Below the pieces are notes generated by a model. That model did no database searches. It had not been told where the DNA came from and saw nothing but the letters and a program-made list of their open reading frames with translations. A stretch of DNA of 64,000 nt from an uncultured virus (IMG/VR IMGVR_UViG_3300042863_002994) (Duplodnaviria; Heunggongvirae; Uroviricota; Caudoviricetes): IMG/VR virus record IMGVR_UViG_3300042863_002994; one strand, given 5' to 3'. The stretch's first letter is position 1, and each line of letters opens with the position of its first letter. This document shows positions 1,937 to 57,066 of the stretch, one piece after another. Both the position numbers and the translations under genes were made by a program.

Positions 1937-2080
1937 TTAATTTTGCAATTCTCTCATTTCAATGCCTTTTAGTCCTATTGCCAGAAATCTGGATACTTTT
2001 GTCCATTCACGATATTTCATAAGTGATAGTAATGGCAATAATGCTCGTATTTCGACTTCATCGTTACAAAGGCCTACCAT
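1937..2080 (-). CDS. Small hypothetical protein (47 aa, below ORF track cut-off)
   Basis: MVGLCNDEVEIRALL...EMRELQN*; overlaps the stop of 2074..2331. Confidence 0.35.
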   Translation of the reverse strand: MVGLCNDEVEIRALLPLLSLMKYREWTKVSRFLAIGLKGIEMRELQN

Positions 2081-2332: not shown

Positions 2333-3067
2333 TTAATTGTTTTTAAAAATTTTTATTAATTCTGTTGTTGGTATTCTATTTTCAATCTTATCAGATTTAT
2401 GTTTCCAAACTACTCTTAAAGATCCATTTACTATTCCAATTCCTATTGTGTTTTCTCCAACTGAAATTTTAAATGTACTTTCTTTGAGTTCAATTGGAAT
2501 TATTTCTAGATTTGGATTCTCATCCCAGTTTTCTATATTTCTTAAAAATTGAAAATTTTCCCTTTTTAGGTATTCATCACTCAAAAGTTTTAAAAGATCA
2601 GATTTTTTTTTCATTATTTCATTTTTCCTAACTCCAAATACATCCTTATGTGAAAATCCAAGTGTTATATGCAAATCATGATCTGGAAGTTCATATCTTT
2701 TTCTAACAGATTCTAATTTATCACTTTTACAAACAACAAAATAAGTAGTGTTCTCATTTCTTTTTGCAGTACCTACTCCCATCATTTTAAGATCATCGAT
2801 TGGGAATTTGAAAACTTTATCAAGAGAATTAACAAATTTATCAATTCCCATTTCCTTTGAAAGTCTATTATAATCCATTACGTTCATTATTGTGACATGG
2901 TATGAGCCCCTATCTCTGTTCTGTTGATTTGATATATATTTATCATATTCATCGCCTAAATGATCTTTTAATTCATCCAGGAATTTTTGAATAGTTGATT
3001 GATCTATCTTTATTCCAAGATAGTTGTTTCCAGTAATATCCTTAATATGTGTTATATAGTATGTCAT
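2333..3067 (-). CDS. 2H phosphoesterase family protein
   Basis: Two HxT motifs (YHVTI, LHITLG) with typical spacing. Confidence 0.75.
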   Translation of the reverse strand: MTYYITHIKDITGNNYLGIKIDQSTIQKFLDELKDHLGDEYDKYISNQQNRDRGSYHVTIMNVMDYNRLSKEMGIDKFVNSLDKVFKFPIDDLKMMGVGTAKRNENTTYFVVCKSDKLESVRKRYELPDHDLHITLGFSHKDVFGVRKNEIMKKKSDLLKLLSDEYLKRENFQFLRNIENWDENPNLEIIPIELKESTFKISVGENTIGIGIVNGSLRVVWKHKSDKIENRIPTTELIKIFKNN

Positions 3068-4257
3068 TATTTTTTAAATTCTTCTGATTCTAATCTATTT
3101 ATTTCATCTCCCAATGCCTTTGCCTTGAATCCCAAATCCATAAGTTCTTTAGCAGATACTTTTGGAACAAAATCTATGAATTTAGTTAAATATTTATCAT
3201 TTAACTTAGCAACTCTTATCCAATCAAGTATTTCATCATTGCTTATATGACATCTACTTTTTGCTTTATAAAAATCCATAACTGAATCTGAATTGAAATC
3301 CATCAAAGATATTAAGAATTTAACTTTTCTTGATACATCAATTGGTATCTTCCAAGATTGAACCATTTTATTTTCTAGAGTTTCCAAATTCTCGTTTTTG
3401 AAGATATTCGCAAGATGAGATACAATATAGTTAGAATCAATCATTTTGTTGTTTATAATAGATCCTGGAAATGCTTCTCCCCACATATTATATTCATTAT
3501 AAAACTCTAAGTATCTTTTAAAATCTTTAGATTGTTTAAATGCTTTTTCAAACTCTTCCCAGATCCTTTCTTGTGATACATCATCTTTAGGACCAACTCC
3601 TTTTAGTCGATTATCTCTTTTAATGGCATTAGATGTTTCTTCTTCAATTTCACCGCCAGTTCTCGCGGCAAACCTGAATATCCTGCATATCCTTAAACGA
3701 TCTTCTATGAACCTTTGATTTGCATCACCAACAGCTCTTATTATACCATTTTTAATATCATCTATACCACCAACTAAATCGACAATTTTTTTATTTTGAA
3801 TATCATAGAAAAGAGAATTTATTGTGAGATCACGCCTCATACAATCGTCTTCTATAGTAACATCTGAACCGATTTCTACTTTTTGATCTTCTCCTTTGGT
3901 GTCTCTGCCTTTTGAAATATCTCTGCGATATGTTGCTACTTCATAACCTTCTGGATCATCTTTTGTATAAACTCTAAGAACTCCAAAATTCTTTCCTTGT
4001 TCATCAGAAACATTAAAATCCTTTAATATTTTTTTTGACTCTTCTGGAAGAGCATTTGTAACTAAATCATAATCTTTTGGGGGTATTCCTTTTATGAAAT
4101 CTCTAACGGCACCTCCCACAAGGAATATTTCTTTTCCTGCTTTTATATAAGCATCAGATATCTGGATAATGTCTTTTGGTAGTGGGATCTCTAAAGAAGA
4201 TCTTTTCTCTACCAAGAAATTATTGTAGTTACTAATATATTTTTTACTATTTATCAT
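3067..4257 (-). CDS. cca: CCA tRNA nucleotidyltransferase / poly(A) polymerase family
   Basis: LVGGAVRD..DYDLVT, RRDLTINSL, F.EDRLRI.R.FRFA, SQERIWEE motifs. Confidence 0.9.
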   Translation of the reverse strand: MINSKKYISNYNNFLVEKRSSLEIPLPKDIIQISDAYIKAGKEIFLVGGAVRDFIKGIPPKDYDLVTNALPEESKKILKDFNVSDEQGKNFGVLRVYTKDDPEGYEVATYRRDISKGRDTKGEDQKVEIGSDVTIEDDCMRRDLTINSLFYDIQNKKIVDLVGGIDDIKNGIIRAVGDANQRFIEDRLRICRIFRFAARTGGEIEEETSNAIKRDNRLKGVGPKDDVSQERIWEEFEKAFKQSKDFKRYLEFYNEYNMWGEAFPGSIINNKMIDSNYIVSHLANIFKNENLETLENKMVQSWKIPIDVSRKVKFLISLMDFNSDSVMDFYKAKSRCHISNDEILDWIRVAKLNDKYLTKFIDFVPKVSAKELMDLGFKAKALGDEINRLESEEFKK

Positions 4258-9366: not shown

Positions 9367-9397
9367 CAAATATAGGATAAAAAGTTCTATTTACAAA
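9367..9397 (-). promoter_or_regulatory. Bacteroidota-type sigma promoter (TTTG-19 nt-TATATTTG), representative copy
   Basis: TAnnTTTG also at 1895, 4262, 12293, 14231, 16999, 22631 (-) and 17826, 30791, 32458, 36287, 53695 (+), each shortly upstream of a start codon. Confidence 0.75.
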
Positions 9398-9433
9398 ATT
9401 TTTTAAATAGGGAGAGTTTTAATATATATTATA

Positions 9434-10111
9434 ATGATTTTAGATAAAAAGGTTAAGGTTAAAATAACGAAGAAGAATATTGATCATTATAAAAATTTTT
9501 ATGAGAGCATATCATTAAAAGATGAAATTGAGATAGATACTGAAACTCAATTGCAGAAAGGAAGTAATTTAAAAATAAATGTTTCATGTGATTTGTGTAA
9601 TATACAAAGATATATAAAATATCAGTCTTATGTGAAGAATATTAATTGTTGTGAGAAGTATCAAATTTATACTTGTGATAAGTGTTCTCATATAAAATTG
9701 AAGGAATATAATTTAAATCATTATGGTGTAGAATACTATTCTCAACATCCTGATAGAAATGAAAAAGTTAGATTAACTTCTTTAGAGAGGTTTGGTGTTG
9801 ATCATTATAGTAAAACTGATGAGTATATAGAAAGAAGAGGTAAGACGAATATTGAAAAATTTGGTTTTATTAATCCTTTTATGGATAAAGATATGATTAA
9901 ATCATCTTTTTTTATTAAATATGGTTTTGAGAATCCCTCTCAAGTAGAAGAATTTAGTGAAAAGGCAAAAATTAGCACTAGAGAAAAGAACGAAGAACTC
10001 AAGTATTGGATTCCTCTTAGTCAAAAAACAGACTGGGAAATTTATAAAAATAAAGTTAGAAATCTGACCAGGTTGTCTATTAAAGATATAGAATGGGATG
10101 GTACAGATTTT
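9434..10111 (+). pseudogene. 5' part of KYG-repeat HNH-like endonuclease interrupted by foreign DNA
   Basis: Collinear with 6950..7867 up to WDGTD (WDGND in paralog), then an abrupt change to unrelated sequence. Confidence 0.8.
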
Positions 10112-10167
10112 GTCATAATTGCTGAAACAATAAAAATTGCTCCGAAAATTGTCATTAATTTTTTCAT
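10110..10167 (-). pseudogene. Truncated lipoprotein-like signal peptide (second cassette gene)
   Basis: MKKLMTIFGAIFIVSAIMT, cut at the junction where a lipobox Ser-Cys would be expected. Confidence 0.55.
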
Positions 10168-10342
10168 TCTGTTTTGCGTAGTCGCCACTTTTGTTTGATT
10201 ATGTTCCGTTTTTTAAAGTGGGTTCTGGTCTCCACATTTGTGAATTAAATTATTGTTTGGTCTTAACATATATGTCAATACGAGTCAAAAGTCGGTGGTT
10301 CTCTTGTCTTTGTCATTCCGTTGGTTGTCTTTTTAAACTTGC

Positions 10343-10475
10343 CCATAACGTTTTTGGGCTTGGCGAAGGTGGGGATTAAAAAGTACTAAAGTTCAAATTT
10401 AGCACAAAAGTTAATAGAAAGTACAAATGCTCAATTAAGCACAAAAGCCCCACTTTTGCCAAACCCTTGTTAGCT
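10343..10475 (-). other. attC-like recombination site
   Basis: AGCTAAC just after the HAD stop, then a 19-bp imperfect inverted repeat (GGGTTTGGCAAAAGTGGGG / CCCCACCTTCGCCAAGCCC), then GTTATGG. Confidence 0.8.
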
Positions 10476-10481
10476 GCCGTA

Positions 10482-11156
10482 TTATTTATTAATTCCAAGT
10501 TTGTTTTCTGCATTTTCAAAATTAAAGTTGACCCAGTTTTCAGTATGAACGTCAATACCTTCTTTCTTAAAATCGTCATAATTTTTCAATCCCACTCCAA
10601 TGAATTTTAAATTTAAGTTTTTTGCTGTTTTTAAATCCCAAATTCCATCTCCGATTGAAATAATATTTTCAAATTCGTCAACACAATAATATTTTTTCGC
10701 TTTTTCGATTGCGTCAGATACAATTTCTTCTCTCTTATAAAAATGGTTAGATGAAGCAATAAGTTTCTCGTCATACCAAATTTTTGCTTGTTCTAATTTA
10801 AGAATAGCTGGGTTCAATAACGAGCCTGTCGCAAAAGTCAAAGCGTATTTTTTTTCTTCTTTCAAAAAGTTCACAAATTTGTTAGCCCCATTAATTTCTT
10901 TAACATTTTCTAATGTTTGCATTATTTCAATCATTTTCTGTTCAAAGTCGTTTAACAAATTAAAATCAAACTTTACAGAAAAATTATTTTCGTAGTTTTC
11001 TTTTAAAATGTAACTGTCTGTATGATGCTTATATTCATTCCAGTTTTGATTAATTTTAGTAACTCCAATTTTTTGCATTGAATTTAAATATGCAGTTTTA
11101 TGTTGGTAATCACTTTTTGTCAAGGTTTCGTCAATGTCAAATACAATTAAATTCAT
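10482..11156 (-). CDS. HAD family hydrolase (cassette-borne)
   Basis: Motif I FDIDETL, motif II ATG, motif IV IGDGIWD. Confidence 0.9.
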   Translation of the reverse strand: MNLIVFDIDETLTKSDYQHKTAYLNSMQKIGVTKINQNWNEYKHHTDSYILKENYENNFSVKFDFNLLNDFEQKMIEIMQTLENVKEINGANKFVNFLKEEKKYALTFATGSLLNPAILKLEQAKIWYDEKLIASSNHFYKREEIVSDAIEKAKKYYCVDEFENIISIGDGIWDLKTAKNLNLKFIGVGLKNYDDFKKEGIDVHTENWVNFNFENAENKLGINK

Positions 11157-11179
11157 TTGTGAGTGTGTTTGGTAAATAT

Positions 11180-11257
11180 GGCAGCTAACTTGTTTATATG
11201 TCTGTAACGCCCATTAATTTTACAGACATAACCCATCTAATTTGGTGGGATATGTCT
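11180..11257 (-). other. attI-like site: core GTTAGCT plus three phased TATGTCT/AGACATA boxes
   Basis: AAACAAG^TTAGCTGCC at cassette start; boxes at 11197, 11224 (inverted) and 11251. Confidence 0.5.
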
Positions 11258-11323
11258 ATGTTTTTGATTTACAGGTTGGGAAATTACAGATATTATTCAA
11301 AAACGCCCAGCAGTTTTTGGATG

Positions 11324-11518
11324 TTCATCGGTAGTAACTTCACTTTATCTCATTATGATGATGAGTATCCTACGATAGATCATAAAATATCTATTTATGA
11401 AGGATTTTGTAAAGGAATGGAACCTGAGTTAATATCTTCTATTCAAAATATTTGTTGGACTAAGAGAACTATTAATATAAAAAAGAACAAGAAATCATTT
11501 TATTCAGAAAATATATAA
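11324..11518 (+). pseudogene. 3' part (HNH-like domain) of the interrupted endonuclease
   Basis: NFTL...YPTIDHKISIYEGF...PELIS.I.NICWTK..IN aligns with the C-terminus of 6950..7867. Confidence 0.8.
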
Positions 11519-11521
11519 TAA

Positions 11522-11932
11522 ATGAATCATCTATTATTTTTTAATAACTTCATATCGGAAAGTGTCGACTCTAAACCATTGAATGGAATGATGGCAAATC
11601 ATCTATTAAAGGATTCAGATGCTTTTCCATTTAATAAAAAAGAGATTGAATGGGTAAAGTCTAATATAAATACCAAGGATTTCGATTTGAATATTGATAA
11701 GGAAAATAGTTTTTTTATTTTTTCAAAATCAAAAACACATGGCACTCGTGTTTGGAAACTTAAAGACAAATGGGATAACTCTGATGTTTATTTTTTAAAA
11801 TTAAAAGCAAATTTCGATGAGCATCATCCTTCGGATCCATCTTCTGGTACTTGGTTTGGATCATCTTTTGGTAGAGAATGGGGTCGTAATTGGGAAAAAT
11901 TTAATACAGAAAACATATCAGAAATTTTTTAA
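11522..11932 (+). CDS. Hypothetical protein with MNHLLFFNNFISES leader
   Basis: 136-aa ORF, leader variant. Confidence 0.7.
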   Translation: MNHLLFFNNFISESVDSKPLNGMMANHLLKDSDAFPFNKKEIEWVKSNINTKDFDLNIDKENSFFIFSKSKTHGTRVWKLKDKWDNSDVYFLKLKANFDEHHPSDPSSGTWFGSSFGREWGRNWEKFNTENISEIF

Positions 11933-12270
11933 ACTTCTTTGAATGTAAATTTTGTCATTTCTTTATTGAATATGAAAGTTCCACAGAATCTGTATCTATC
12001 ACAATCTGATTGTACTTCATAATATGTTGTTCCATCATGTTCATATTCGAACAACCAAAAGTCATTATCTTCTATCATTTTATCAACTCTTACATCAACT
12101 CTACCTTTTACGCCAAATTCTTCCCACCAGTTCAGATCATCATTTAATTTCCAGTTGATATAATCTTGCAATTCTTTTAGTTGATTTAAATTTAGATTTA
12201 AGAAACCAACTTCTTTTCCATAACCTAGTTTTAAGAAACTTGGATCAAATTCTGTAAATTGTTTTGTCAT
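11929..12270 (-). CDS. Hypothetical protein
   Basis: 113 aa, TATATTTG upstream. Confidence 0.7.
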   Translation of the reverse strand: MTKQFTEFDPSFLKLGYGKEVGFLNLNLNQLKELQDYINWKLNDDLNWWEEFGVKGRVDVRVDKMIEDNDFWLFEYEHDGTTYYEVQSDCDRYRFCGTFIFNKEMTKFTFKEV

Positions 12271-12414
12271 TTTAAAATTATTTAGTTTTATACAAATATA
12301 GGATAAAAAGTGGAAAAACGGTTGAAGGATAAATTCATCGAAAAGTAAAAACTCTATATGATTTTATCTATTTGTTGATTCCGCCATTCTTCTAGTTCTA
12401 TAAAAAATAAGTTT

Positions 12415-12618
12415 TCATTGTTGGGATTCCAAAAAACGTTTAGATTCCTTATAGTTCTCTATCGGAATATCTGCATAAATAGGTACAATAAGAAATTCGT
12501 TTAAATCATTTCTCGTGCCTAATAGTTCATCATAAGAATAATATCCCTCATAGATTTTACCATAAGTAAAATTACGATACGTAAGTTCTTTTGTGACACA
12601 AACCCATTTATTCATCAA
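12415..12618 (-). CDS. Small hypothetical protein, probably frameshifted before a C-terminal tag
   Basis: Alternate frame continues FWNPNNENLFFIELEEWRNQQIDKII*. Confidence 0.55.
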   Translation of the reverse strand: MMNKWVCVTKELTYRNFTYGKIYEGYYSYDELLGTRNDLNEFLIVPIYADIPIENYKESKRFLESQQ

Positions 12619-12938
12619 TACTCAGTTGTATATTTTATTTCAAATCCGCCATTGTGTGCATCTTCACCGATTTCGAACCAATTTTCTGATCCATCTTCTG
12701 CAGAGTTATAAATTTCTTTCCACTCTGGTTCAATAAGTTTAAAGACTTCTTTCATGGTTTCTGAATCGAGTTCTGATTCAATATCCCAGAGATCGAGTTG
12801 TGAAAGATATTGTATGAAATCTTCTTCGGATTCTCCTTCATAGGGAGTTGGTAGGTTACGGAATTTCTCAGGATTGAGTGTTGCAACTTCTGTCGATCTT
12901 ACTACCTTATAGGTTTCACATTTTCTTACTTTGTACAT
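12615..12938 (-). CDS. Hypothetical protein
   Basis: 107-aa ORF in operon. Confidence 0.7.
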   Translation of the reverse strand: MYKVRKCETYKVVRSTEVATLNPEKFRNLPTPYEGESEEDFIQYLSQLDLWDIESELDSETMKEVFKLIEPEWKEIYNSAEDGSENWFEIGEDAHNGGFEIKYTTEY

Positions 12939-13004
12939 TTTCTTTTACTTAATTGATTATTGATTTTAATTTAAGTTCTCTTATTAATGATTTATCACCT
13001 GCAT

Positions 13005-14216
13005 TTATTTAGATTCGTCATCCATATCATCTTCTTTTTCAAATTCACTTTGATATGAAGGAGAATTGCAAATTTTATCCCACTCAGGACTTTGTTCAAA
13101 TCCCCATTTAATCATCTTATCTACAATTTGGTGCCAATTAAGATCTCCGCGGAATTCAAATTCATTAGGACTTACCATTGAAATCTTACCAAAAGAATTG
13201 AGTTTCATCAATTCATTAAAAGAATCTTTACTAACTTGATATTCGGTATCATTCAAATTATCTTTTCCACAGATTTTTATTGTATAGTATCCTTGTGTTA
13301 CCATATCCAAAACAACATCTTTTTTTAGTCTCAAAGCCTCTGATACTTTACTAACGACAAGTTTCAGATTTTCATCGACTTCAATTCCAGTTTTATTTTC
13401 TGATGAAACGTAGAAAACAACTCCATTTGGATCACACAATGGTTTCATATCATCTAGTCGTGTTCTAAGTACACGTAGATCGACTTTACCTGTTTCAATA
13501 GAATTTTGAGTTGAATTGAATGTAGATTCAAGATTTCTAAGTTCTTTTTCTTTTTTCTCAATTCTATCTTCGAGTTCTTGTATTTTCTCACGATTCATCT
13601 CATTGAATGAATCCATGATCATTTGTTGGGCGATTGATAATTGTGTAGGTTCTTTTACAACTTCTTCTACTGGAACAATAGATTCAGCATTTTCAGTTTT
13701 GAGATCATCATCATCAAAAAGGCAGTCAATAATTGAAAGTGCATTTTCTGATACTACTTTTTCTTCTTCCTCAAAAAGATCAAAGAGTTTTTGTATTGGT
13801 TTTTTTTCTTCTACTTCGATATACATTGGTTTATCATTTTCATCATGAAAGTTAGTTCCACTTAAAATATATTTTTTCATATATCCAATTACTTCTTTTT
13901 CTGAAATCTCATCGGCAATTCGTTGTAACATAGGTTCGTCTGTTTGTGATGTATTCAGTTCTTCTATATCCAATGCCCCATCATCACAAATTGTAACTTT
14001 GAATGTAACTTCCTCTAGCATACCGGATACAGCTTTCCCATCAAGGAAAGCGGTTTTTTGGAAAATCCTTATATTTCCTTTTAGACCTTGTATGAAATTT
14101 AGGAATTTTTTACTTGTTTTGTATTTGCCTAATGTTGGTTCTGATTTTTCAGAATTTTGAGTTGTTTCTTCATTCTCAGATAGTATCTGATCGATTATTG
14201 AGTTTTTATCAGTCAT
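13005..14216 (-). CDS. Coiled-coil hypothetical protein
   Basis: 403 aa, heptad-like central region. Confidence 0.75.
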   Translation of the reverse strand: MTDKNSIIDQILSENEETTQNSEKSEPTLGKYKTSKKFLNFIQGLKGNIRIFQKTAFLDGKAVSGMLEEVTFKVTICDDGALDIEELNTSQTDEPMLQRIADEISEKEVIGYMKKYILSGTNFHDENDKPMYIEVEEKKPIQKLFDLFEEEEKVVSENALSIIDCLFDDDDLKTENAESIVPVEEVVKEPTQLSIAQQMIMDSFNEMNREKIQELEDRIEKKEKELRNLESTFNSTQNSIETGKVDLRVLRTRLDDMKPLCDPNGVVFYVSSENKTGIEVDENLKLVVSKVSEALRLKKDVVLDMVTQGYYTIKICGKDNLNDTEYQVSKDSFNELMKLNSFGKISMVSPNEFEFRGDLNWHQIVDKMIKWGFEQSPEWDKICNSPSYQSEFEKEDDMDDESK

Positions 14217-14244
14217 TTTTTAATTTTTTACAAATATAGATATT

Positions 14245-14583
14245 TTAAAGTATATTATCGAGTTTTATTTCTCTTATTTCTCCTTTTGTTAAAATTTTTG
14301 GAAAATCCATTTGAGAAATATCAAGAATTGTTCCTATATCAACTTTAAGTTCTTTGATAATATCGTTCTCTTCATCATTATCAAGAAAAGATAGTATATT
14401 GTTTATTTCTGTTCTAATAGAATTAAAATTGTGTAAGCATATCACGTTATCCTCATCATGATTATCTACTGATGAAATTGCCAATATATATTTTTCTTTC
14501 TCAGAAAGTTCTTTAATTTTATCCGATATATCATAAACATTAAAATATTTAAAACACTCTTTTAGTTCATTGCTTATCTTCAT
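14245..14583 (-). CDS. Hypothetical protein with C-terminal IREIKLDNIL
   Basis: ORF plus motif. Confidence 0.7.
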   Translation of the reverse strand: MKISNELKECFKYFNVYDISDKIKELSEKEKYILAISSVDNHDEDNVICLHNFNSIRTEINNILSFLDNDEENDIIKELKVDIGTILDISQMDFPKILTKGEIREIKLDNIL

Positions 14584-14830
14584 CTTTTTTTAAAATTTGT
14601 TCTATTTTATATTCTCTTATTTTATTTTTGTTTAATTCAAATATTAATGACATATATTGTTTCAACAATTCTTCTTCTATTCCTAATTCATTGGTGATAT
14701 AATATCTATATCCATCATAATCACCATAATACCATTTTCCTTCAATGAATATATCAAATTTTCCATTAGGAAAGTCTGTGTATCCACTTTTAGTATTTTT
14801 ACAGAAAAATTTTGTACTTATTATTTCCAC
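14567..14830 (-). CDS. Hypothetical protein with C-terminal IREYKIEQIL
   Basis: ORF plus motif. Confidence 0.7.
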   Translation of the reverse strand: MEIISTKFFCKNTKSGYTDFPNGKFDIFIEGKWYYGDYDGYRYYITNELGIEEELLKQYMSLIFELNKNKIREYKIEQILKKDEDKQ

Positions 14831-15118
14831 TTAAAGTCCTAATTTTGAAAGTTGGTATTCTCTGAATTCTATTTTACCCACTGATCCTAGTTCATAAGCT
14901 CTCCTAAAGAAAACATCAAAAATATGATCTTGTTTAAGTTCTTTTGCAACTAAAGCTCTGTTTATTGCTTTATGTTCATCAGTTATTCTATTTGCCTGAG
15001 TTTGTGCAAGTGATATTTGCTTTTCAATATCACTTGTCTTTGATATAATATCTTGTATTCTTTTAAAATTTTTTAGATATTCTGATTTTGTTTGTCCGTT
15101 AAACTCATGTAACATCAT
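14831..15118 (-). CDS. Hypothetical protein with C-terminal FREYQLSKLGL
   Basis: ORF plus motif. Confidence 0.7.
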   Translation of the reverse strand: MMLHEFNGQTKSEYLKNFKRIQDIISKTSDIEKQISLAQTQANRITDEHKAINRALVAKELKQDHIFDVFFRRAYELGSVGKIEFREYQLSKLGL

Positions 15119-15453
15119 GATATAATATTATTATTTATTTCCATTTTTTCTTTAAACCTTAAGGCTTTGAATTTTTTAACTGAATTAAATCCACAAATAT
15201 CCATAATTTCAATTTTATAAAGATCGATTATTCTTTTATGTGTCCAGAAAACATATTCTGCGAGATACTTCTCTTTTGAATTTTCTATATTTCCGATGAA
15301 ATTCTCATTGTCTATTTTAATATCAGGAGAAAGTCTATTAGAAAATCTTCTAGATACATCCAAAAGATTTTGTCGAGTCTCGTAGTAATCCATTTCCTTT
15401 AGTTTATCTATGATTTTTTTATCAATATGACTTCTTATATTTTCTCTTTTCAT
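15115..15453 (-). CDS. Hypothetical protein
   Basis: 112 aa, overlapping start/stop with neighbours. Confidence 0.65.
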   Translation of the reverse strand: MKRENIRSHIDKKIIDKLKEMDYYETRQNLLDVSRRFSNRLSPDIKIDNENFIGNIENSKEKYLAEYVFWTHKRIIDLYKIEIMDICGFNSVKKFKALRFKEKMEINNNIIS

Positions 15454-15797
15454 TTTAAAATATTTTCTATTTTATTATCTCTTACAACTTTTTTAATCCA
15501 ATTTATATCTTTAAAATTAATTCCAATTACTATATCATTTAAAACATAATTATTTATCTCAATTCTTTCTTTCTGAGTTATAATATCGATATTTCTTTTT
15601 TTAAAATGATATTTATTTGATATCTTATCATAAAGCCTTTCTTTGATGTATTTCAATTTCCATATCTCATTTTCTTTTTTATAGAATGTTTTGATCTTCA
15701 ATGTATCATAGAAGATAAATTCATATGTACTTTTAAATACTATATCAATTTCTCTCTCAATAGATATTGTATTATCTGAAACTCTTTCTATTTTCAT
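15450..15797 (-). CDS. Hypothetical protein with C-terminal VRDNKIENIL
   Basis: ORF plus motif. Confidence 0.7.
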   Translation of the reverse strand: MKIERVSDNTISIEREIDIVFKSTYEFIFYDTLKIKTFYKKENEIWKLKYIKERLYDKISNKYHFKKRNIDIITQKERIEINNYVLNDIVIGINFKDINWIKKVVRDNKIENILK

Positions 15798-16371
15798 CTA
15801 TTTTGTTTATAAAAAATCCACATAGACCTATGAAAGCACCACCAAGGTGTGCAATGTGACCGACACCATCTTGTACACCGAATATAATACTAAATATTTC
15901 AATAATAACAAAAAAGGCAATTAATTTTTTTGCTTTAAATGAAAAGAAAGGAAGAAAGATTATAGATAATTCTGCATTAGGATATCTTAGAGCATAATAT
16001 ACCATCAGAGCAAATATGGCTGCTGATGCACCAACAAGAGGAACATTAAAAAAAAGAAGTTGGATGAAAGCTCCAAATACTCCCGATATGAAATATAACC
16101 ATAGAAATTTTTTTTCACCAAGATCATTTTCACATAAAGGGCCAAATGAAAGTAATCCAATCATATTAAAAATAAGATGCGTAAATCCACTATGGATGAA
16201 CATGTAACTTATGAATCTATAAACAGAAAACTCATTTGAATTTATAGGATAAGCCGCAAATAAGAACATTAAATTTGGAATAGCCAAAGTAAATATGAAT
16301 GCAATAATATTTATATAAAATATCTTGCTTACTAAGTTTGTTTTTTCGAACATATAAAATAATTTATACAA
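15772..16371 (-). CDS. Rhomboid family intramembrane serine protease
   Basis: H...HLIFNM, GASAA, HIAHLGG, multiple TM segments; real start may be MFEKTN. Confidence 0.9.
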   Translation of the reverse strand: MYKLFYMFEKTNLVSKIFYINIIAFIFTLAIPNLMFLFAAYPINSNEFSVYRFISYMFIHSGFTHLIFNMIGLLSFGPLCENDLGEKKFLWLYFISGVFGAFIQLLFFNVPLVGASAAIFALMVYYALRYPNAELSIIFLPFFSFKAKKLIAFFVIIEIFSIIFGVQDGVGHIAHLGGAFIGLCGFFINKIDENRKSFR

Positions 16372-16425
16372 AAATAAGAAATAAATTTCAATTAAAATAA
16401 CTAATGGATTTTACAATGTTCACTT

Positions 16426-16977
16426 TCATCGCAGTTTATTTTGCTCAATTATAACTTTCAACTTACTAACGTATGCGGTATCTTCTGCATAGTTTTGACC
16501 TAAATAATTCAAATATTCTGACTCACTATGAATATCATTTAAATATGTGGCGCTATAAAAAGCGTAATCAACGACACAATCACGCCATGTGTTAAAACAA
16601 GCATGTCCTTTATTTTCACCAGTATTGGTTGTTGGTCTAAGCTTAGCGCACTTCATTCCAAAAAAGTTTTTATTCTCCTTAAATATGGTGCTACTAAATC
16701 CACCACTTTCTAGTTCGGCTTGAGCTAAGACAATATGTGGATATTTAATGTTAAGTTGTAATATATATTCACGCAATTTATCACGACTAAATTCATTATC
16801 CTCACGCATTACTATTAGTCTGGCTTCATCAGACATTAGTACAACCTTAAATAACTTTATACCAATGCTGAAAGAAATTATTGAAAAAACTAAACCAGTT
16901 AATAATATTACAAAAAGTATCCATAAACGACTAACTTCTGTGTATTGTAATTTTTTACTATTGAATCTATATATCAT
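16426..16977 (-). CDS. Membrane-anchored glucosaminidase (GH73-like) peptidoglycan hydrolase
   Basis: N-terminal TM; AQAELESG, NFFGMK, YAED..Y. Confidence 0.8.
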   Translation of the reverse strand: MIYRFNSKKLQYTEVSRLWILFVILLTGLVFSIISFSIGIKLFKVVLMSDEARLIVMREDNEFSRDKLREYILQLNIKYPHIVLAQAELESGGFSSTIFKENKNFFGMKCAKLRPTTNTGENKGHACFNTWRDCVVDYAFYSATYLNDIHSESEYLNYLGQNYAEDTAYVSKLKVIIEQNKLR

Positions 16978-17083
16978 GTTTTTTTATTTTTTATGATACA
17001 AATATAGTTAAAATTTTCATATATCGAATAAATTTTTTTTTAAACTATTTAAACTTTTATCGTAATATTTACTATATTTTTAT

Positions 17084-17794
17084 ATGTATATGAGAATAAC
17101 ATTTTTATCCGATACGCATAATAAACACACATCAGTGGATTCTTTCTTAACTGGAGGAGATATTTTAATACATGCGGGCGATTTTATGTCAAGTGGTTAT
17201 AGTTCAGAAGAAGCTGAATCTTTTTTTAGTTGGTATGATTCAATAAAAGGCTATGATACAAAAGTTCTTATATCTGGAAATCATGACAGAATTATGGAGG
17301 ATCGTCAAATTTGGTCAGCTGGTGTATTAAAGGGTTATAAAACAATAGAATATCTTCAAGATAACGAATTGGTGATCTATTATGATGGTCCTAATGGTGA
17401 ATTCCCAGAAGATAACATTCACATATGGGGTTCTCCTTGGCAACCTAAATTTTATAACTGGGCTTTTAACTTAGATCGTGGTGAAGAAATTAAACAAAAG
17501 TGGAATTTGATACCAAAGAATACAGATATCTTAATAACTCACGGACCTCCTTTTGGTAAATTAGACCGCACTTCTTATGGGTTAAATGTTGGTTGTGAAG
17601 ATTTATTGCATAGACTTGCTGATGTAAAACCAAAAATACATGTTTTTGGACATATTCATGAAGGAGCTGGTTATGTATTTGATGGAACTACTCACTTTTT
17701 TAACGCATCAGTTCTTAGTGATAACTATGAATTTAGAAATAAACCAATTACAATTGATTGGAATAGTGATACCAACGAAGTTGAATTTGTTTAA
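17084..17794 (+). CDS. Calcineurin-like metallophosphoesterase
   Basis: DTH, GD, GNHD, THGPP, GHIHE. Confidence 0.9.
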   Translation: MYMRITFLSDTHNKHTSVDSFLTGGDILIHAGDFMSSGYSSEEAESFFSWYDSIKGYDTKVLISGNHDRIMEDRQIWSAGVLKGYKTIEYLQDNELVIYYDGPNGEFPEDNIHIWGSPWQPKFYNWAFNLDRGEEIKQKWNLIPKNTDILITHGPPFGKLDRTSYGLNVGCEDLLHRLADVKPKIHVFGHIHEGAGYVFDGTTHFFNASVLSDNYEFRNKPITIDWNSDTNEVEFV

Positions 17795-17820
17795 ATTCAT
17801 TACAAGTTTGTAATGAATTT
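17793..17820. promoter_or_regulatory. Perfect 13-bp inverted repeat (terminator or operator) upstream of uvsE
   Basis: AAATTCATTACAA-GT-TTGTAATGAATTT. Confidence 0.5.
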
Positions 17821-17852
17821 TTATCTATCTTTGTGTAAATAAAAAATAGAAA

Positions 17853-18776
17853 ATGAATAAATTAGGTTATTGTTGTATCTGCCTTGGTATAAATGAAGGT
17901 AAATCAAAAAAAGATCAAATAATGGTCAACCGAGGTATGATTAAAAAAACTTTTGATGCCAAAGGTTTGCCTTATGTTTCTGAACTAACCATATTGAATC
18001 TACAAGATGCTCTTAAAATTCTTGATTACAATATCAAGAATAATATTCAAGTATATAGAATGAGTTCTGAAATGTTTCCCTGGTTCACTCATTATTCATT
18101 TCAAGATTTGCCTAAGTTCAATACAATAAAATCTCTTCTTCAAAAAATCGGCAAAGTTGTTAAAGAAAATGATTTGAGAGTCGGATTCCATGCTCCACCA
18201 TTCAATGTTCTAGGAAGTGAGAATCCATCTGTTGTTGAGAAGACGATAGACGAGTTGAATAAACACGCAGAACTACTTGATTTGATGGAATTAGATCAAT
18301 CTACTTACTACCCAATAAATATACATATTAATACAACACAACCTACCAGAGAATTGGCTGCAAAAAGATTTTGTGATAATTTCAATTTGCTCTCAGAATC
18401 TTGTAAAAAAAGATTGACCGTTGAGAATGATGATAAGTTATCTCAATATTCTGTTAAGATGCTTTACGATCTTGTTTATTCAAACATTTCTATTCCGATT
18501 GTATTTGACCAGCTGCATTATAAATTAGGACCACAAGATCAAACATTAGAAGAAGCTTTGAAATTGGCCATTTCAACTTGGAAGACAAAACCTCTTACAC
18601 ACATGGCTTCTTCAATTAGAAATGAAGATCCTAAAGGATTAGAGCGAGCTCATGCTGATTATATTTACGAACCTATTGAGACATTTGGTTTAGAATTTGA
18701 TATAGAGATTGAATCAAAAGGAAAAGATCTGGCTCTTATTAAGTATAGAAAAGATTACGGATTGTTACTTAGTTGA
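17853..18776 (+). CDS. uvsE: UV DNA damage endonuclease
   Basis: LGYCC, YRMSSEMFP, RLTVENDD, FDQLH, AHADY, ESKGKD. Confidence 0.9.
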   Translation: MNKLGYCCICLGINEGKSKKDQIMVNRGMIKKTFDAKGLPYVSELTILNLQDALKILDYNIKNNIQVYRMSSEMFPWFTHYSFQDLPKFNTIKSLLQKIGKVVKENDLRVGFHAPPFNVLGSENPSVVEKTIDELNKHAELLDLMELDQSTYYPINIHINTTQPTRELAAKRFCDNFNLLSESCKKRLTVENDDKLSQYSVKMLYDLVYSNISIPIVFDQLHYKLGPQDQTLEEALKLAISTWKTKPLTHMASSIRNEDPKGLERAHADYIYEPIETFGLEFDIEIESKGKDLALIKYRKDYGLLLS

Positions 18777-18855
18777 CCTGGATCTAAAAGTCCTTTTCCA
18801 AATTTTTCAACTCTTTCTGAATACCTTGCCTTGATCCTTACTTAAAGATTCTGCT

Positions 18856-19377
18856 TTATAAATGAAAATATAATCCCCATCCTAAGTCATATTCATTTGT
18901 GTCCTTTTTTTCCCAATTGGAAATATATCGCATCATAAACTCATATATTTTATCTTTTGGTGTTCCTGTAGCACCTATACAATATTCAATATTTTTATTC
19001 AAGTCTTTTAAAATCCAAATAACTCTTGCAAATACATCTATTGATTCATCATTATTAGTTCTGTCATGATAACTATTGTCTAATTCAGAGTTAAATAAGC
19101 TAAATCCAATGTGCCATATATCATCTATAGGTTCCTTTATTAAATCAATTCGATACTCAATATTTGACTTAGAGTTAAACTTTATAAGCACTCTTCTATT
19201 GTTATCTTCTATAATGGAATATGGTGTAACTCTTCCCTCAAAAATCTCTTCTTTAATATTTAAAAATTTAGGCAATCCACCATTTGTATATATTTCATTT
19301 TTCCTATCAAGCCTAGTAGTATTATACTTCTCAGTATATCTCTTATAATCTTCTATACGAACTAATACTTTATTCAT
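18856..19377 (-). CDS. Hypothetical protein (GWGLYF family)
   Basis: Paralog of 2..280. Confidence 0.7.
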   Translation of the reverse strand: MNKVLVRIEDYKRYTEKYNTTRLDRKNEIYTNGGLPKFLNIKEEIFEGRVTPYSIIEDNNRRVLIKFNSKSNIEYRIDLIKEPIDDIWHIGFSLFNSELDNSYHDRTNNDESIDVFARVIWILKDLNKNIEYCIGATGTPKDKIYEFMMRYISNWEKKDTNEYDLGWGLYFHL

Positions 19378-19468
19378 TTTTTATTTTATAATGTTTTTAA
19401 CAAAGTCTTTAAACTTAGTACCTGTAATAAGAGATAGTTTTATTTCTCTTACATTAGACGTATCGACA

Positions 19469-19684
19469 TCATAACACCACCAAATAAATTTCCATTGAAT
19501 CAATTTTAGAATCTCTGATATAAGAAATTATAGAAAAAGATGAATTTATTTCTGGTAACTCATAATGAGAAACTTTAGAAATAATTTCATCTTTAATTCT
19601 TTCTTCTTTGAAAGTGTATCCTAATAGAGTAATTTTTGATTGATTAATTAATTCAAATAAATATTCCGCATTAACGAAACTCAT
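19469..19684 (-). CDS. Small hypothetical protein, probably frameshifted
   Basis: IRDSKIDS motif; shifted frame continues ..YDVDTSNVREIKLSLITG.. to a stop at 19381. Confidence 0.55.
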   Translation of the reverse strand: MSFVNAEYLFELINQSKITLLGYTFKEERIKDEIISKVSHYELPEINSSFSIISYIRDSKIDSMEIYLVVL

Positions 19685-20232
19685 TTTTTCCGTATCTGTG
19701 AGAATGTAAGATCAACTGGAGTGGATCTTCCAAAGATATAAACATCTAACTTTACTTTTTCTTTTTCCTCATCTATTTTTTGAATTATTCCTTTAAATGA
19801 AGAGAAGGCTCCATCAATGACATCTACCTCTTCCCCTATGAAATATATGTCGGACATTTTTTTATCATCGGTTACTTTCTGAGATTTAATTATTTGTTCG
19901 ATTTCTCTTTTTTTCATTGGAGATATAGATCCATCTCTTGTTCTTACAAATCCTGGAGTTCCATCAATTGTTTTAAGAATTCTTGCCATTTCGCCAATTG
20001 CACTTGTTTCTATGAAGATGTATCCGGGATAAAGTGCTTTTTCTTTTAGAATCTTTTTCCCATTTTTTGAAGATAATATCTTTTCAGTTGGCACCATTAT
20101 TTGTGAAACAAGATTTGTCAAATTATTTGATTCAATTTCTTTTATTATTCGTTCTTTTACTTTATTTTCAACGTTATTCATGGTTCTAACCACATACCAA
20201 TTCATTCCTTCTTTTAAAATTTTTTCTTCCAT
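19681..20232 (-). CDS. nusG: Transcription termination/antitermination factor NusG
   Basis: WYVV..E..V, YPGYIF, KOW GEEVDVIDGAFSSF, IFGRSTPV. Confidence 0.95.
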   Translation of the reverse strand: MEEKILKEGMNWYVVRTMNNVENKVKERIIKEIESNNLTNLVSQIMVPTEKILSSKNGKKILKEKALYPGYIFIETSAIGEMARILKTIDGTPGFVRTRDGSISPMKKREIEQIIKSQKVTDDKKMSDIYFIGEEVDVIDGAFSSFKGIIQKIDEEKEKVKLDVYIFGRSTPVDLTFSQIRKK

Positions 20233-20244
20233 TTTTTATTGTGT

Positions 20245-20646
20245 TTATTTGTTTTTAGAATTAAACCATTTAAGTTCTTCTTTTATTATTTCGGGAAAGT
20301 GATCTATTAGATAGATCAAATCTTCTTCTTTATTTATATTCAATTTTGCCATTAAAAGTTTAAAATCTTTTTCCGATATTTCTGTTTTTTCTATTTTTTG
20401 TGATTTTGACCAGAACCATTGTGGATAATTTTTACCATCTTGAAAATAAAACCAAAGATTCATAACAGAAACTGAATCTATATTTTTTATATTACATATC
20501 TCAGAGTATTCTGGATACATTTTAGAAAAAAGTCTATTTACTATAAATGAAAATTCTTCTTTTTGATCATCTGTGACCCATTTCCAATTCTCACGGTTCT
20601 TAAACATGCAGTTTGTTATTTGCAAAAGATTATTATCTATTTTCAT
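20245..20646 (-). CDS. Hypothetical protein, possibly clamp-loader small subunit (gp62-like)
   Basis: FIVNRLFS..N..W pattern next to a replication gene; weak resemblance only. Confidence 0.35.
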   Translation of the reverse strand: MKIDNNLLQITNCMFKNRENWKWVTDDQKEEFSFIVNRLFSKMYPEYSEICNIKNIDSVSVMNLWFYFQDGKNYPQWFWSKSQKIEKTEISEKDFKLLMAKLNINKEEDLIYLIDHFPEIIKEELKWFNSKNK

Positions 20647-40744: not shown

Positions 40745-41230
40745 ATGTCAACACATAAAGTGAAAATAAAAGTAATTCATGTTGATAATTGGAAGCACCT
40801 TCAATTTGTTAAAGTTATAAAAGAACATACCGGATTAGGATTAAAAGATGCCAAAGATTTATCGGATGATATTAAAATTATTTATGATAGATCTTATAAT
40901 AAATGGGTCGAACTTGATATAATTACTGATGCCTATTCTTTAAAAAAAGATATATCTTATCAAGGATTTCGAGTTGAAATAATTGATCAAACAGAAGAAA
41001 GGAATTTAAAACTTATGTCAATAGGACTTGGTGATAAATCCGATTTAATAGAATCAATATCCAAGGAACTATCAATCGAATTGTATAGTAAAGTAAAAAA
41101 TGAGTTATCAAATGATTTGGATAGTATATTTAAATCTTATTTTGAAAAACTATTGATTGATTTCAGTGATGAGAAACTAATAGAAATTTTAAATAAAAGA
41201 ATGAGTGGCAAATGCTTGCATACACTCTAA
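40745..41230 (+). CDS. Protein with ribosomal L7/L12 C-terminal-like domain
   Basis: VKVIKEHTGLGLKDAKDL. Confidence 0.7.
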   Translation: MSTHKVKIKVIHVDNWKHLQFVKVIKEHTGLGLKDAKDLSDDIKIIYDRSYNKWVELDIITDAYSLKKDISYQGFRVEIIDQTEERNLKLMSIGLGDKSDLIESISKELSIELYSKVKNELSNDLDSIFKSYFEKLLIDFSDEKLIEILNKRMSGKCLHTL

Positions 41231-54621: not shown

Positions 54622-55409
54622 TGAGAATTAAAAGGTTTATAGAATCCTTAGAAAATGATGAAATAAAAATAAAAAACTATCTTATAGATTTTGAAGATAG
54701 AACAGACTTTGAATTTGAAATTTCAGTTTCAAATAATTTTATAAATATTAAAGGATCTACAGATAAATTACAAGTTGAAAAAATTGTATTTATGAATGAG
54801 ATTATCAATTTACTATCTTTGATAAAAAATCTTGGATATAAAAATTTAGATCGATTTAATGTTATATCTTTATTGCCTGGTAAATGTCAAGTGCAACTTC
54901 AGTTTGTTGATGAATTGGAACAGGAAATAAAAGTTCCAGATATTAACTCATTTATAGAATTTAAATCATTTATAGAAACAACTTTGGCATTAAAATTTAT
55001 GGAATGGGATAGCGAATTATACATACCAAATAATTCACCAGATAGAGATTTAATGATTGAATTTGCTGATGGACATTTTATAATATCGGGACCTCCTTAT
55101 AGTATAAATTGGAATATTTTTAAACCAGAATTTAAAAAATTCTTGGAACCTCTTATAATCAAAGATAAAGAGCGTCTAGCACATACATATTATGATATAG
55201 ATGGTAGTATGTATAAACACATGCCCTCCTGGGCCGCAGTTAAAGATGATGATGGTAAAGAAGTATCAAAAGAAGAAATAAAACTTTTACAAAAATCCTA
55301 TAAAGAAAAGCTTTTCAAATTTGATAAAAGTGGTGCAAAGATTATTGTTAAAATATATGAATTTTTAAAAGATAAAAGTTTTGACGATACATTGTATCTT
55401 TCTAATTAA
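54618..55409 (+). CDS. Hypothetical protein with MRIKRFIES leader
   Basis: ORF plus leader. Confidence 0.7.
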   Translation: MMRIKRFIESLENDEIKIKNYLIDFEDRTDFEFEISVSNNFINIKGSTDKLQVEKIVFMNEIINLLSLIKNLGYKNLDRFNVISLLPGKCQVQLQFVDELEQEIKVPDINSFIEFKSFIETTLALKFMEWDSELYIPNNSPDRDLMIEFADGHFIISGPPYSINWNIFKPEFKKFLEPLIIKDKERLAHTYYDIDGSMYKHMPSWAAVKDDDGKEVSKEEIKLLQKSYKEKLFKFDKSGAKIIVKIYEFLKDKSFDDTLYLSN

Positions 55410-57066
55410 CTTTTGCATTAACTTTTTTAATTGATTCATGAAACCATTTCGGAAAAAGATGTGATGAATATTTTAAAAGATCAGCAAAAGATCCATCTAT
55501 AATAATAGTATCACCCCAATCAGAATTTGATCTTATTATTCTTCCAGTCATTTGACATATCTCTGATATGGTTCTATAATTATACCAATCTGAATTCATT
55601 TTTTGTCTTAATTTATTTTTCTGGGAAGCAAGAGAAGGATAAGGAACTTTTGCAATTATTTGAAACCTTGCAAAGTCATCATCCAATGAAACTCCGGTAC
55701 TCATAGAAGGTGATACTATGACACTTGATTGTTTAGTATCAAAATGTGCTTTTAGAACTTCATCTTTATTTGATGAGTCGTGATAAACAAGTCTTGAATT
55801 TTTGACATCTCTAGATATCCAACTAGCCAATTCAAATGAATTTGTATGTATAAGTCCTTTTTTATCTGAGTATTTATTAAGTATTTTATTTATAAAAGGT
55901 ATATAATTCCTAAATGTTTCTTCTTTGTTCTTAAATGACATCTTTCCAAGTGGCATATAATAAATAGGTCGATTTTTAACATCAAATGGTGAATCGATTG
56001 AATAATAAACTGTTTTATCTATATCCAATCCATTTAGTTGGCAAAATAGATTCTTGTCCAATATTGTTCCAGACATTAAGAAAACCATATCATAATTTGA
56101 GAAAATGTATTTATCGAGGTAATCTGATGCCCATATAGGCTCTAATGAAAGCTCTTTTTGTTTTGTCTTTTCATTCCAACTCGATTCAAGTACCCAGTTA
56201 TCTGGATTTGATTTATGTTCTTTTAAGAAGACCTCTATTTTTGATTGATATTTTTTAAGATCAGATATGATTGTCATTAATTTTGAATCTGCATTTTTCT
56301 GATTCAGAATTTTAGATATTTTGTTATCTCTTTTGTCATTTTTAACATTTCTATCGAATGACATAGAACGATCTATCTCTCCTATTGTTTCTGCGCATTT
56401 TCTTTCAAGTTCCTCAAGAAAAGAAACATACTCTGAAATTGTTTTAACTTTTTTAAGATCCGATATTATTCCTTTTTCATCCGAGAATTTAAGTCTTTTT
56501 ACAATGTTTTCAGTTATTTTTATAGATATGAAATCGGACATGACATCATCAAGTATATGAGCTTCGTCAACTATAAGAACTTTAGATCCGCGCATCTTCA
56601 AAAGTTCTGGCATATAAAGAGTATATAGTATATAAAGATAAAAGTTAGTAAGTGATATATTACCATTAATAAAAGATTCTTTAGCACCTGAATATGGACA
56701 TGATTCACATTTAGTTTTATTCAATTTATTGAATTCCTGTCCTTCTGAACAAGAGCAGCTATATTGAGAACACTCATAATTTTCCTTACCCTTTAGATCA
56801 TTTATAGAATTGTATGTATTTACATATTGATCCTGAAGTATTTTTGAATTGGTTATTATATCAACTCTTGAACCTTTGGATACATTTTTCTTATACCAAT
56901 CTGCTATCATAAGAGCAAGGTGACTTTTTCCAACTCCGGTTGGAAGATTAAGTAAGAATATTTTTGATTCTTTATTTTTATTCCATTCTTCATTAATGAA
57001 TTTTATACAATCTTCTTGTTCTTTTCTAGGAAAATATTTGTCAAGATCTTTTTTAAGTGAGCTCAT
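55402..57066 (-). CDS. DinG/XPD-like SF2 helicase
   Basis: PTGVGKS, LKGKENY.C, Cys cluster, DEAH, SGT, GVSL, Q.TGRIIR. Confidence 0.9.
   Translation of the reverse strand: MSSLKKDLDKYFPRKEQEDCIKFINEEWNKNKESKIFLLNLPTGVGKSHLALMIADWYKKNVSKGSRVDIITNSKILQDQYVNTYNSINDLKGKENYECSQYSCSCSEGQEFNKLNKTKCESCPYSGAKESFINGNISLTNFYLYILYTLYMPELLKMRGSKVLIVDEAHILDDVMSDFISIKITENIVKRLKFSDEKGIISDLKKVKTISEYVSFLEELERKCAETIGEIDRSMSFDRNVKNDKRDNKISKILNQKNADSKLMTIISDLKKYQSKIEVFLKEHKSNPDNWVLESSWNEKTKQKELSLEPIWASDYLDKYIFSNYDMVFLMSGTILDKNLFCQLNGLDIDKTVYYSIDSPFDVKNRPIYYMPLGKMSFKNKEETFRNYIPFINKILNKYSDKKGLIHTNSFELASWISRDVKNSRLVYHDSSNKDEVLKAHFDTKQSSVIVSPSMSTGVSLDDDFARFQIIAKVPYPSLASQKNKLRQKMNSDWYNYRTISEICQMTGRIIRSNSDWGDTIIIDGSFADLLKYSSHLFPKWFHESIKKVNAKVN

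What the first reader, a model, noticed from the sequence alone, without database searches (positions are those of the whole stretch)
12355..19500. The C-terminal tag sits just out of frame behind several genes
Seen: (a) For 12415..12618, removing one base from the 6-nt run at 12431-12436 gives ..FWNPNNENLFFIELEEWRNQQIDKII*. (b) For 13005..14216, one extra A at TCT AAA TAA gives ..ESKINAGDKSLIRELKLKSIIN* (stop 12949). (c) For 19469..19684, a +1 shift gives ..YDVDTSNVREIKLSLITG..* (stop 19381). Weaker cases lie at 1937..2080 (MRELQ/INK) and ~41335-41409 (GRNSHLSDIL). The 5.8-kb and 3.2-kb genes are intact, which argues against uniform indel error. Inference: the tag is switched off by slippage mutations, added by ribosomal frameshifting, or lost in decaying accessory genes.
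Basis: partly seen in the sequence, partly recalled or inferred. Interest (0 to 1): 0.7.

Follow-up and report, generated by a model that had tools for sequence, protein, structure and literature searches.

The report
Leftover tags from broken phage genes
In a huge lake bacteriophage, three copies of a short peptide that ends many of its proteins lie out of frame because this strain lacks DNA that close relatives still carry (two single bases in one gene, longer stretches in two others), so they are likely leftovers of ordinary gene decay and not an on/off switch.

Summary
The out-of-frame tags are real DNA, but they arose three different ways and most likely are decay, not a switch. Contigs of several lake runs match the window without gaps. 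(a) A relative has one more T in each of two T runs; this puts the tag in frame (87-aa P0080). (b) Two runs carry about 1.5 kb more exactly in front of the tag; the window gene is a cut 530-aa untagged allele joined to someone else's 3' end. (c) The 71-aa ORF is the first 63 codons of a 155-199-aa gene (35 of 35 longer homologs) joined to foreign DNA; its 'tag' scores weakly. The two weak cases fail. No conserved shift site or stimulator was found; 67 of 70 cluster mates of intact tagged genes keep the tag in frame; an untagged gene nearby is also broken. The scan reported the tag itself before on other genomes; my paper searches found no description. Value: natural tagged and untagged allele pairs for testing the tag.

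The parts
12415..12615 (-). Site (a): 66-aa 5' part of an 87-aa tagged small protein, ended early by a frameshift
   Evidence: Cluster mate P0080 (87 aa, one substitution in the shared part) continues to the tag; distant homolog P0076 (89 aa) also ends in the tag
12431..12436 (-). First T6 run; T7 in run X19
   Evidence: table 4 (one A put in behind 12430, contig depth 11.8)
12402..12407 (-). Second T6 run, downstream of the new stop; T7 in run X19
   Evidence: table 4 (one A put in behind 12401)
12354..12401 (-). Orphan 3' end of gene (a) with the tag (R codon 12381-12383, stop 12354-12356), 14.9 bits
14231..14238 (-). TATATTTG box (TAnnTTTG type) 14 nt before the 403-aa gene; likely a host-polymerase promoter
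   Evidence: consensus in PMC7641319 passages
13005..14216 (-). Site (b): 403-aa core of a modular family (other alleles 405, 530-531, 576-581 aa); tail matches the 530-aa untagged allele up to the junction; TAA is GAA in L001
13001..13002 (-). Deletion junction; X17 has 1523 letters in place of 13002-13026, and two X19 contigs end at 13001 and 13027 with 275 and 1246 unlike letters
   Evidence: tables 5 and 8
12949..13001 (-). Orphan 3' end with the tag (18.8 bits), stop 10 nt before the next start codon; likely from a deleted downstream gene
19469..19684 (-). Site (c): codons 1-63 of a 155-199-aa conserved gene, cut inside its internal tag-like motif (IRDSKIDS), plus 8 foreign codons
19381..19503 (-). 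Foreign stretch with weak tag-like peptide (7.9 bits); 19418-19503 is replaced by 66 other letters in X17 and X19, so the 'tag' is absent there
14245..15797 (-). Four neighbouring genes with the tag in frame (14245..14583, 14567..14830, 14831..15118, 15450..15797), for comparison
9434..11518 (+). Control: untagged DUF7487 gene split by a 1.2-kb insert that X17 lacks

Best explanation
The three out-of-frame tags are 3' ends cut off from their reading frames by DNA losses in this strain of a huge phage, likely ordinary decay and tail shuffling of accessory genes, and they would not be translated to any useful extent. Steps: (1, shown) the phage ends many small unrelated proteins in an R-x-x-K-[IL]-x-x-[IL]-[LIG] peptide. 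(2, shown) At (a) the strain has one T less in each of two T7 runs than an intact allele. (3, shown) At (b) it lacks about 1.5 kb in front of the tag, and at (c) it lacks codons 64 onward of the gene. (4, inferred) The 3' ends survive because a deletion that spares the last 50-110 nt leaves the next gene's start region intact: the orphan stops lie 10 nt (b) and 3 nt (c) before the next ATG, and a promoter box follows (a). (5, inferred) The tag only makes such leftovers visible; untagged genes break too but leave no recognisable mark. (6, inferred, not tested here) The tag is likely a helical docking label for one shared partner, and these proteins have simply lost it.
For: Intact allele of (a): X19 indels and protein P0080, in the same register as distant P0076. 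Second loss at (a) lies behind the new stop, as in stepwise decay. (b): 1523-letter joint in X17, matching contig ends in X19; 2 of 9 members of the 530-aa cluster carry the window's exact tail DDMDDESKE and go on for about 127 residues without a tag; 16 of 39 homologs are tagged, always at the end of a different, about 180-aa domain whose tag in the closest alleles reads LRDQKIEDIIK; a later G-to-T stop shortens the junk tail seen in L001. (c): 35 of 35 longer homologs continue past the break; a second broken allele, P0078, ends differently. Independent case in the same family: L019 has an internal deletion that leaves the family's own tag out of frame, with a stop in the tag frame. 67 of 70 listed cluster mates of 12 intact tagged genes keep the tag in frame. 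An untagged gene 2 kb away is split by an insert, and untagged small genes show changed C-termini among cluster mates.
Against: The broken alleles are the commoner ones in the collection (66-aa form on 21 contigs, 87-aa form on 1), which drift in one lake population can give but selection for tag loss could too. The break at (a) occurs on two backgrounds (P0079 and P0081), which fits an old break or a recurrent slip. Only contigs were laid, so minority alleles and RNA-level shifts could not be seen. The 1.5 kb missing at (b) could not be read; its net length (1498, 1 mod 3) would put the tag in frame with the 403-aa gene if the stretch were one open frame, so the owner of tag (b) is inferred. 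The two T6 runs at (a) form U_UUU_UUG and U_UUU_UUA in the frames needed.
Confidence: 0.8

Rival explanations
1. Site (a) is a reversible contingency locus: slippage in short T runs turns the tag on and off within the population.
For: Both lesions are in homopolymers; intact and broken alleles coexist in lake samples; loss of one more T in the first run would restore the frame with nine changed residues; the locus has three very different alleles in three strains.
Against: Runs are only 6-7 nt and common (46 T6+ and 15 T7+ runs in the 80 genes); going back to the natural allele needs two events; explains neither (b) nor (c); no listed protein has the one-base-repair form (3 of 3 cluster members).
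Confidence: 0.09
2. Tag loss is selected: the phage tunes where a protein goes by swapping tagged, untagged or no tail onto a core, and the window's alleles are adaptive tagless variants.
For: The 403-aa family keeps at least four tail classes that all diverge right after EFEKED among close relatives; the short gene keeps its promoter box and an intact 403-codon frame; short forms recur in distant relatives.
Against: In (b) a whole domain goes with the tag, so the tag need not be what is selected; (c) is a fragment; no frequency series or fitness data. This can be true alongside the best explanation.
Confidence: 0.15
3. The tag is added by programmed ribosomal frameshifting or transcriptional slippage, giving tagged and untagged products from one gene.
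For: At (a) two successive -1 shifts on U_UUU_UUG and U_UUU_UUA would rebuild nearly the P0080 sequence (frames).
Against: No ortholog keeps a shift site, the test that PMC3711429 (section 9, part 1) sets for programmed shifts; that paper gives homopolymers of eight or more as the usual slippage sites; 255 in-frame X_XXY_YYZ heptamers occur in the 80 genes; fold z-scores 0.37, -0.46, 0.18, 0.04; no heptamer at (b); L019 has a stop in the tag frame.
Confidence: 0.04
4. The frameshifts are assembly or consensus errors.
For: Site (a) lies in homopolymers; contig depths are low (about 3 to 6).
Against: Gap-free contigs from runs not marked as possible sources match the window; exact products on 11-21 contigs from NCBI, JGI, Logan and ENA.
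Confidence: 0.01

Closest known systems
Pseudogene-type frame transitions and gene remnants (class 'pseudogene' in PMC3711429, Table 1; section 9 part 1 read)
   Same: Frame break confined to one lineage, no conserved shift site, intact orthologs exist, secondary lesions follow.
   Different: Here in a huge phage, and visible only because a shared terminal peptide marks the orphan ends; two of three are deletion junctions, not point frameshifts.
Programmed -1 ribosomal frameshifting in bacteria (dnaX type; PMC3711429 section 9, PMC4066793 abstract)
   Same: Site (a) has X_XXY_YYZ heptamers in the needed frames.
   Different: Not conserved, no stimulator, two shifts needed; absent at (b).
Homopolymer phase variation (contingency loci; recalled, class listed in PMC3711429 Table 1)
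   Same: Site (a) varies by single bases in mononucleotide runs between strains.
   Different: Runs of 6-7 nt, two lesions, no within-sample mixture shown.
T4 capsid-targeting sequence of internal proteins (recalled; named by earlier scan notes)
   Same: A short peptide shared by unrelated phage proteins.
   Different: That signal is N-terminal and has a known role; this one is C-terminal with no known reader. Four window genes with an N-terminal MKxLKxFNE start score far below the C-terminal tag threshold.
Mahaphage-like huge phages of Bacteroidetes (PMC7162821, passages read)
   Same: The 403-aa protein hits two uncultured phage records of 642 and 635 kb at 38-39%; TAnnTTTG boxes before 15 of 80 genes and Shine-Dalgarno-like words before 1 of 80 point to a Bacteroidota host.
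   Different: No terminase or capsid tree was made; I did not check that those two records belong to that paper; the contig is about 19% complete.

Membership tests
Pseudogene or gene remnant | Intact ortholog exists in close relatives | tested here: met
   P0080 for (a), P0222 and P0229 for (b), P0040-P0042 for (c)
Pseudogene or gene remnant | Break not conserved across orthologs | tested here: met
Pseudogene or gene remnant | Secondary lesions after the first | tested here: met
   Second T loss at (a); GAA to TAA at (b); stop in tag frame in L019
Pseudogene or gene remnant | No functional product | not testable with these tools
   No RNA or protein data; the 403-aa core may well be functional, as short alleles recur
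Programmed ribosomal frameshift | Shift site of seven or more nucleotides conserved among orthologs | tested here: not met
   Orthologs are continuous or broken elsewhere
Programmed ribosomal frameshift | Slippery heptamer in the right phase | tested here: inconclusive
   Present twice at (a), absent at (b); 255 such heptamers in 80 genes
Programmed ribosomal frameshift | Stimulatory structure downstream | tested here: not met
   Four folds, z from -0.46 to 0.37
Programmed ribosomal frameshift | Trans-frame product | not testable with these tools
Homopolymer phase variation | Repeat tract at the break | tested here: inconclusive
   T6/T7 runs at (a) only; none at (b) or (c)
Homopolymer phase variation | ON and OFF alleles mixed within one population, reversible | not testable with these tools
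   Only contigs were available; they drop rare variants
Mahaphage clade | Placement in the large-terminase or capsid tree | not tested
   Only protein similarity and promoter type

The most novel reading that the evidence does not exclude
These huge phages use the C-terminal tag as a removable address module: populations hold tagged and untagged alleles of the same protein, made by slippage in T runs just upstream of the tag and by tail exchange at a fixed junction, and selection flips them to reroute proteins without changing the core.
Probability: 0.12. Interest if true: 0.75.

Novelty: new member of a known kind. Interest (0 to 1): 0.28.

Why it matters
As decay it is ordinary, and it warns against reading orphan motif copies as recoding: one-base repairs made by eye gave the wrong protein at all three sites. 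It still gives two useful things. The tag is kept in frame in 67 of 70 close alleles of intact genes yet can be lost in viable strains, so it matters per gene but not every tagged gene is essential. And nature supplies matched pairs (P0080 against the 66-aa form; 581-, 530- and 403-aa alleles of one core) for finding the tag's unknown partner.

Tried and rejected
Owner of tag (b) not found: exact or degenerate patterns gave 0 hits in viral contigs and genome contigs; blastn against phages gave only two short chance hits; the one relative of the next gene (L033) is distant and has an untagged upstream gene. Close relatives absent from viral contigs and genome contigs. Peptide (c) had three hits at E 7-9 in phages. 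PHROGs named none of the three site proteins; Pfam named none of P0080, P0001, P0040 or the 403-aa protein, and gave P0003 one sub-cutoff hit. The Atlas put P0080 near unnamed viral clusters at 0.92 with a low recognition value, a lead only. No Rfam match in 9300-20600, no tRNA in the window. The first blast of the control gene used the wrong strand and was redone; the first scoring of case 1937..2080 used a wrong slice and was redone. In one search the count of 3 'orphans' includes the in-frame GTG-start gene 14567..14830; the true count at 14 bits is 2. The idea that tag DNA is a recombination hot spot was considered, since two alleles of (c) break inside the internal motif, but the DNA after each break is not the rest of a tag, so in-register tag-to-tag recombination is rejected. 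The L003/L004 150-nt difference also orphans a tag but may be an assembly artefact and is not counted as support. No structure or complex job was sent. Paper searches for the tag: 0 papers, 0 for phage homopolymer phase variation with five terms, 1 unrelated each; five terms searched in PMC7162821 main text showed no such motif. Supplements were not read, and subscription papers are not held.
Full report
Context. The window is bases 1-64000 of a 71,441-base linear virus record, about 19% complete, 23-32% GC, held by lake-water metagenomes (19 of 24 listed runs hold half or more of the words). It encodes a two-subunit topoisomerase II, a NusG-like antiterminator, a tRNA nucleotidyltransferase and a helicase, and S1, L7/L12-like, FKBP, rhomboid and UvdE domains. 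A close relative lies on a 411,816-base contig. The 403-aa protein hits two uncultured phage records of 642 and 635 kb. TAnnTTTG boxes stand before 15 of 80 genes against 4 on the other strand and 3% of coding 60-mers, and Shine-Dalgarno-like words before 1 of 80. The box is the -7 element of Flavobacterium and Bacteroides (PMC7641319, two passages). A huge phage of Bacteroidota is the likely source (inferred; PMC7162821 passages place the largest genomes in Mahaphage with Bacteroidetes hosts).

The tag. Twelve of the 80 ATG-start genes, plus one GTG-start gene, end in a peptide scoring 7 bits or more on a profile trained outside the window. Consensus: [KLI]-x-x-x-R-[DEN]-x-K-[IL]-x-x-[IL]-[LIG], mostly 0-2 residues before the stop. 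In 28 related loci (505 kb; four of 32 left out as duplicates or near-self) 145 in-frame and 7 orphan copies score 14 or more (the in-frame count is circular for L002-L025, which trained the profile, and L003 and L004 are near-identical). Among listed cluster mates of 12 intact tagged window genes, 67 of 70 keep the tag in frame, two of them with one substitution (two clusters were listed only to 15 members).

Observation. The three frame relations are as written. They are the three best out-of-frame hits behind the 80 genes: 18.8, 14.9 and 7.9 bits, next -3.3; shuffles give 0.137 hits at 7.9 and 0.007 at 14.9. The weak cases score -5.3 and -5.9. Seven runs not marked as possible sources were laid as contigs, X17 twice. 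Gap-free, difference-free contigs bridge (a) in X8 and X10, (b) in X8, X10, X13, X16 and X18, and (c) in X10. These runs may be one sampling campaign. The exact products occur on 21, 11 and 15 contigs. Consensus error is very unlikely.

Site (a). X19 has one more base in each of two runs, 12431-12436 and 12402-12407. That is +2 and puts the tag in frame. The protein collection holds this allele: P0080, 87 aa, ending RFFGIPTMKTYFFIELEEWRNQQIDKII. The distant homolog P0076 ends RRYGAAYRKIPYFVTLEEWRESKINEIIEDED, in the same register without gaps, so the two-T7 state is likely ancestral. The window spreads this tail over three frames. One run lies behind the new stop. X17 has another divergent allele and X19 an in-frame swap of the middle (118 for 85 letters), so the gene is highly variable.

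Site (b). X17 has 1523 letters in place of 13002-13026; two X19 contigs end at 13001 and 13027 with 275 and 1246 unlike letters. The family has a core of about 400 aa and several tails: a tagged domain of about 180 aa (576-581 aa in close alleles, tag LRDQKIEDIIK), an untagged domain of about 130 aa (530-531 aa), or none (403-409 aa). Sixteen of 39 homologs are tagged (only 221-706 aa were searched). The window's end, DDMDDESK, matches 530-aa alleles P0222 and P0229, which go on EMMEEAKEE. L001 has the same junction with GAA where the window has TAA, and the tag is still out of frame. So a deletion cut a 530-type gene and joined it to a 53-nt 3' end; a stop followed. The 3' end is likely from a separate downstream gene: its tag differs from that of the close 581-aa alleles, X17 diverges where the 581- and 405-aa types do, and a gene of about 160 aa that follows the family in 10 of 14 relatives shown (judged by position and ends) has no match in the contig (four queries, best E 0.2). 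Against this, 1523 minus 25 is 1 mod 3, so a single 921-codon frame in X17 is possible, one chance in three by luck; I could not read the stretch. L019 shows the same outcome independently: most of the family's tagged domain is gone, its tag is out of frame, and the tag frame has a stop where homologs have PEGT.

Site (c). All 35 longer homologs (155-199 aa; only 126 aa or more were searched) run through an internal tag-like motif, IRDSKIDSIL in the closest, and on into a conserved domain. The window matches residues 1-64 only, and the rest is nowhere in the contig. Full-length alleles share their longest-contig sizes (3,331 and 16,623) with alleles of the neighbouring 173-aa gene, a hint that they sit at the same place. 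So (c) is a fragment joined to foreign DNA that may or may not be an old tag.

Controls. A DUF7487 gene is split by a 1.2-kb insert that X17 lacks: residues 1-221 and 226-283 of a relative match 9434-10111 and 11324-11497. Among 49 listed members of five untagged clusters several have changed C-termini, for example 108 against 112 aa, the short form on 28 contigs. This is not a rate comparison, but breakage is not special to tagged genes.

Mechanism. Slippage at (a) and deletions at (b) and (c) cut the tags off (shown by allele comparison). The ends likely persist because they abut the next gene's start: 10 nt at (b), 3 nt at (c), a promoter box after (a) (the reason is inferred). Recoding fails the test of a conserved shift site (PMC3711429 section 9 part 1); that section gives eight or more identical bases as usual for transcriptional slippage, and PMC1088944 section 6 says the harmful run length differs among genomes. 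The (a) runs do form U_UUU_UUG and U_UUU_UUA, so a trace of double-shift product is possible, but such heptamers number 255 in these genes and nothing folds downstream. PMC4066793 was seen as abstract only; my term search in it found nothing. What the tag does was not tested; a helical docking label for one shared partner is my inference and also that of earlier scan notes.

Novelty. The scan's index holds 75 findings in at least 64 genomes for the words searched, and of the eight shown six describe this or a like C-terminal tag. A search for out-of-frame or orphan copies found none with all words, and no look-alike windows. Paper searches found no description of the tag; supplements were not read. 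The out-of-frame copies are a new instance of ordinary gene decay. Verdict: observation mostly right, decay supported, switch or recoding unlikely; interest 0.28.

Noticed in passing
window 10111-11322: A 1.2-kb insert absent from X17 splits a DUF7487 gene. It holds a HAD hydrolase (10482..11156, -) between inverted GTTAGCTGCC / GGCAGCTAAC ends and a 140-nt imperfect palindrome; the bin draws 49-195x depth from other contigs. It looks like a captured piece of a host gene-cassette array (cassette likeness recalled, not tested).
   Followed up: partly
window, upstream of 15 of 80 genes (e.g. 12293-12300, 14231-14238): TATATTTG-type boxes and almost no Shine-Dalgarno words point to a Bacteroidota host.
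   Followed up: yes
window 13005-14216 and homologs P0001-P0039: Unnamed 400-aa core family with interchangeable tails that diverge right after EFEKED among close strains; no Pfam or PHROG name.
   Followed up: partly
window 19493-19520, 40745..41230, 55402..57066, 3067..4257: Tag-like peptides inside proteins (the 165-aa family, the L7/L12-like protein, the helicase at 21.3 bits, the nucleotidyltransferase at 15.0 bits): the motif is not always terminal.
   Followed up: no
window 305, 4278-4967, 5000, 5499 and others: A second, N-terminal motif MKxLKxFNE starts several genes; four checked have no C-terminal tag.
   Followed up: no
L010 8900-9267: The homolog of the tagged 95-aa gene matches only at its last 30 residues, behind an ORF with repeats like those of homing endonucleases (likeness recalled); the gene seems split by an insertion.
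   Followed up: no
L003 7108-7257 versus L004: Two loci identical but for one base and a 150-nt stretch whose loss orphans a tag; real deletion or assembly artefact.
   Followed up: partly
L026-L032: In distant relatives the full-length gene (c) sits between a thioredoxin-like and an SmpB-like gene (names by eye), not behind NusG as in the window.
   Followed up: no
genome 63901-71441: One open frame of at least 2,487 codons begins just past the window and runs off the contig end.
   Followed up: no
window 41205-41409 (+): Two overlapping short frames after the 161-aa gene may be another decayed small gene; no tag support.
   Followed up: partly
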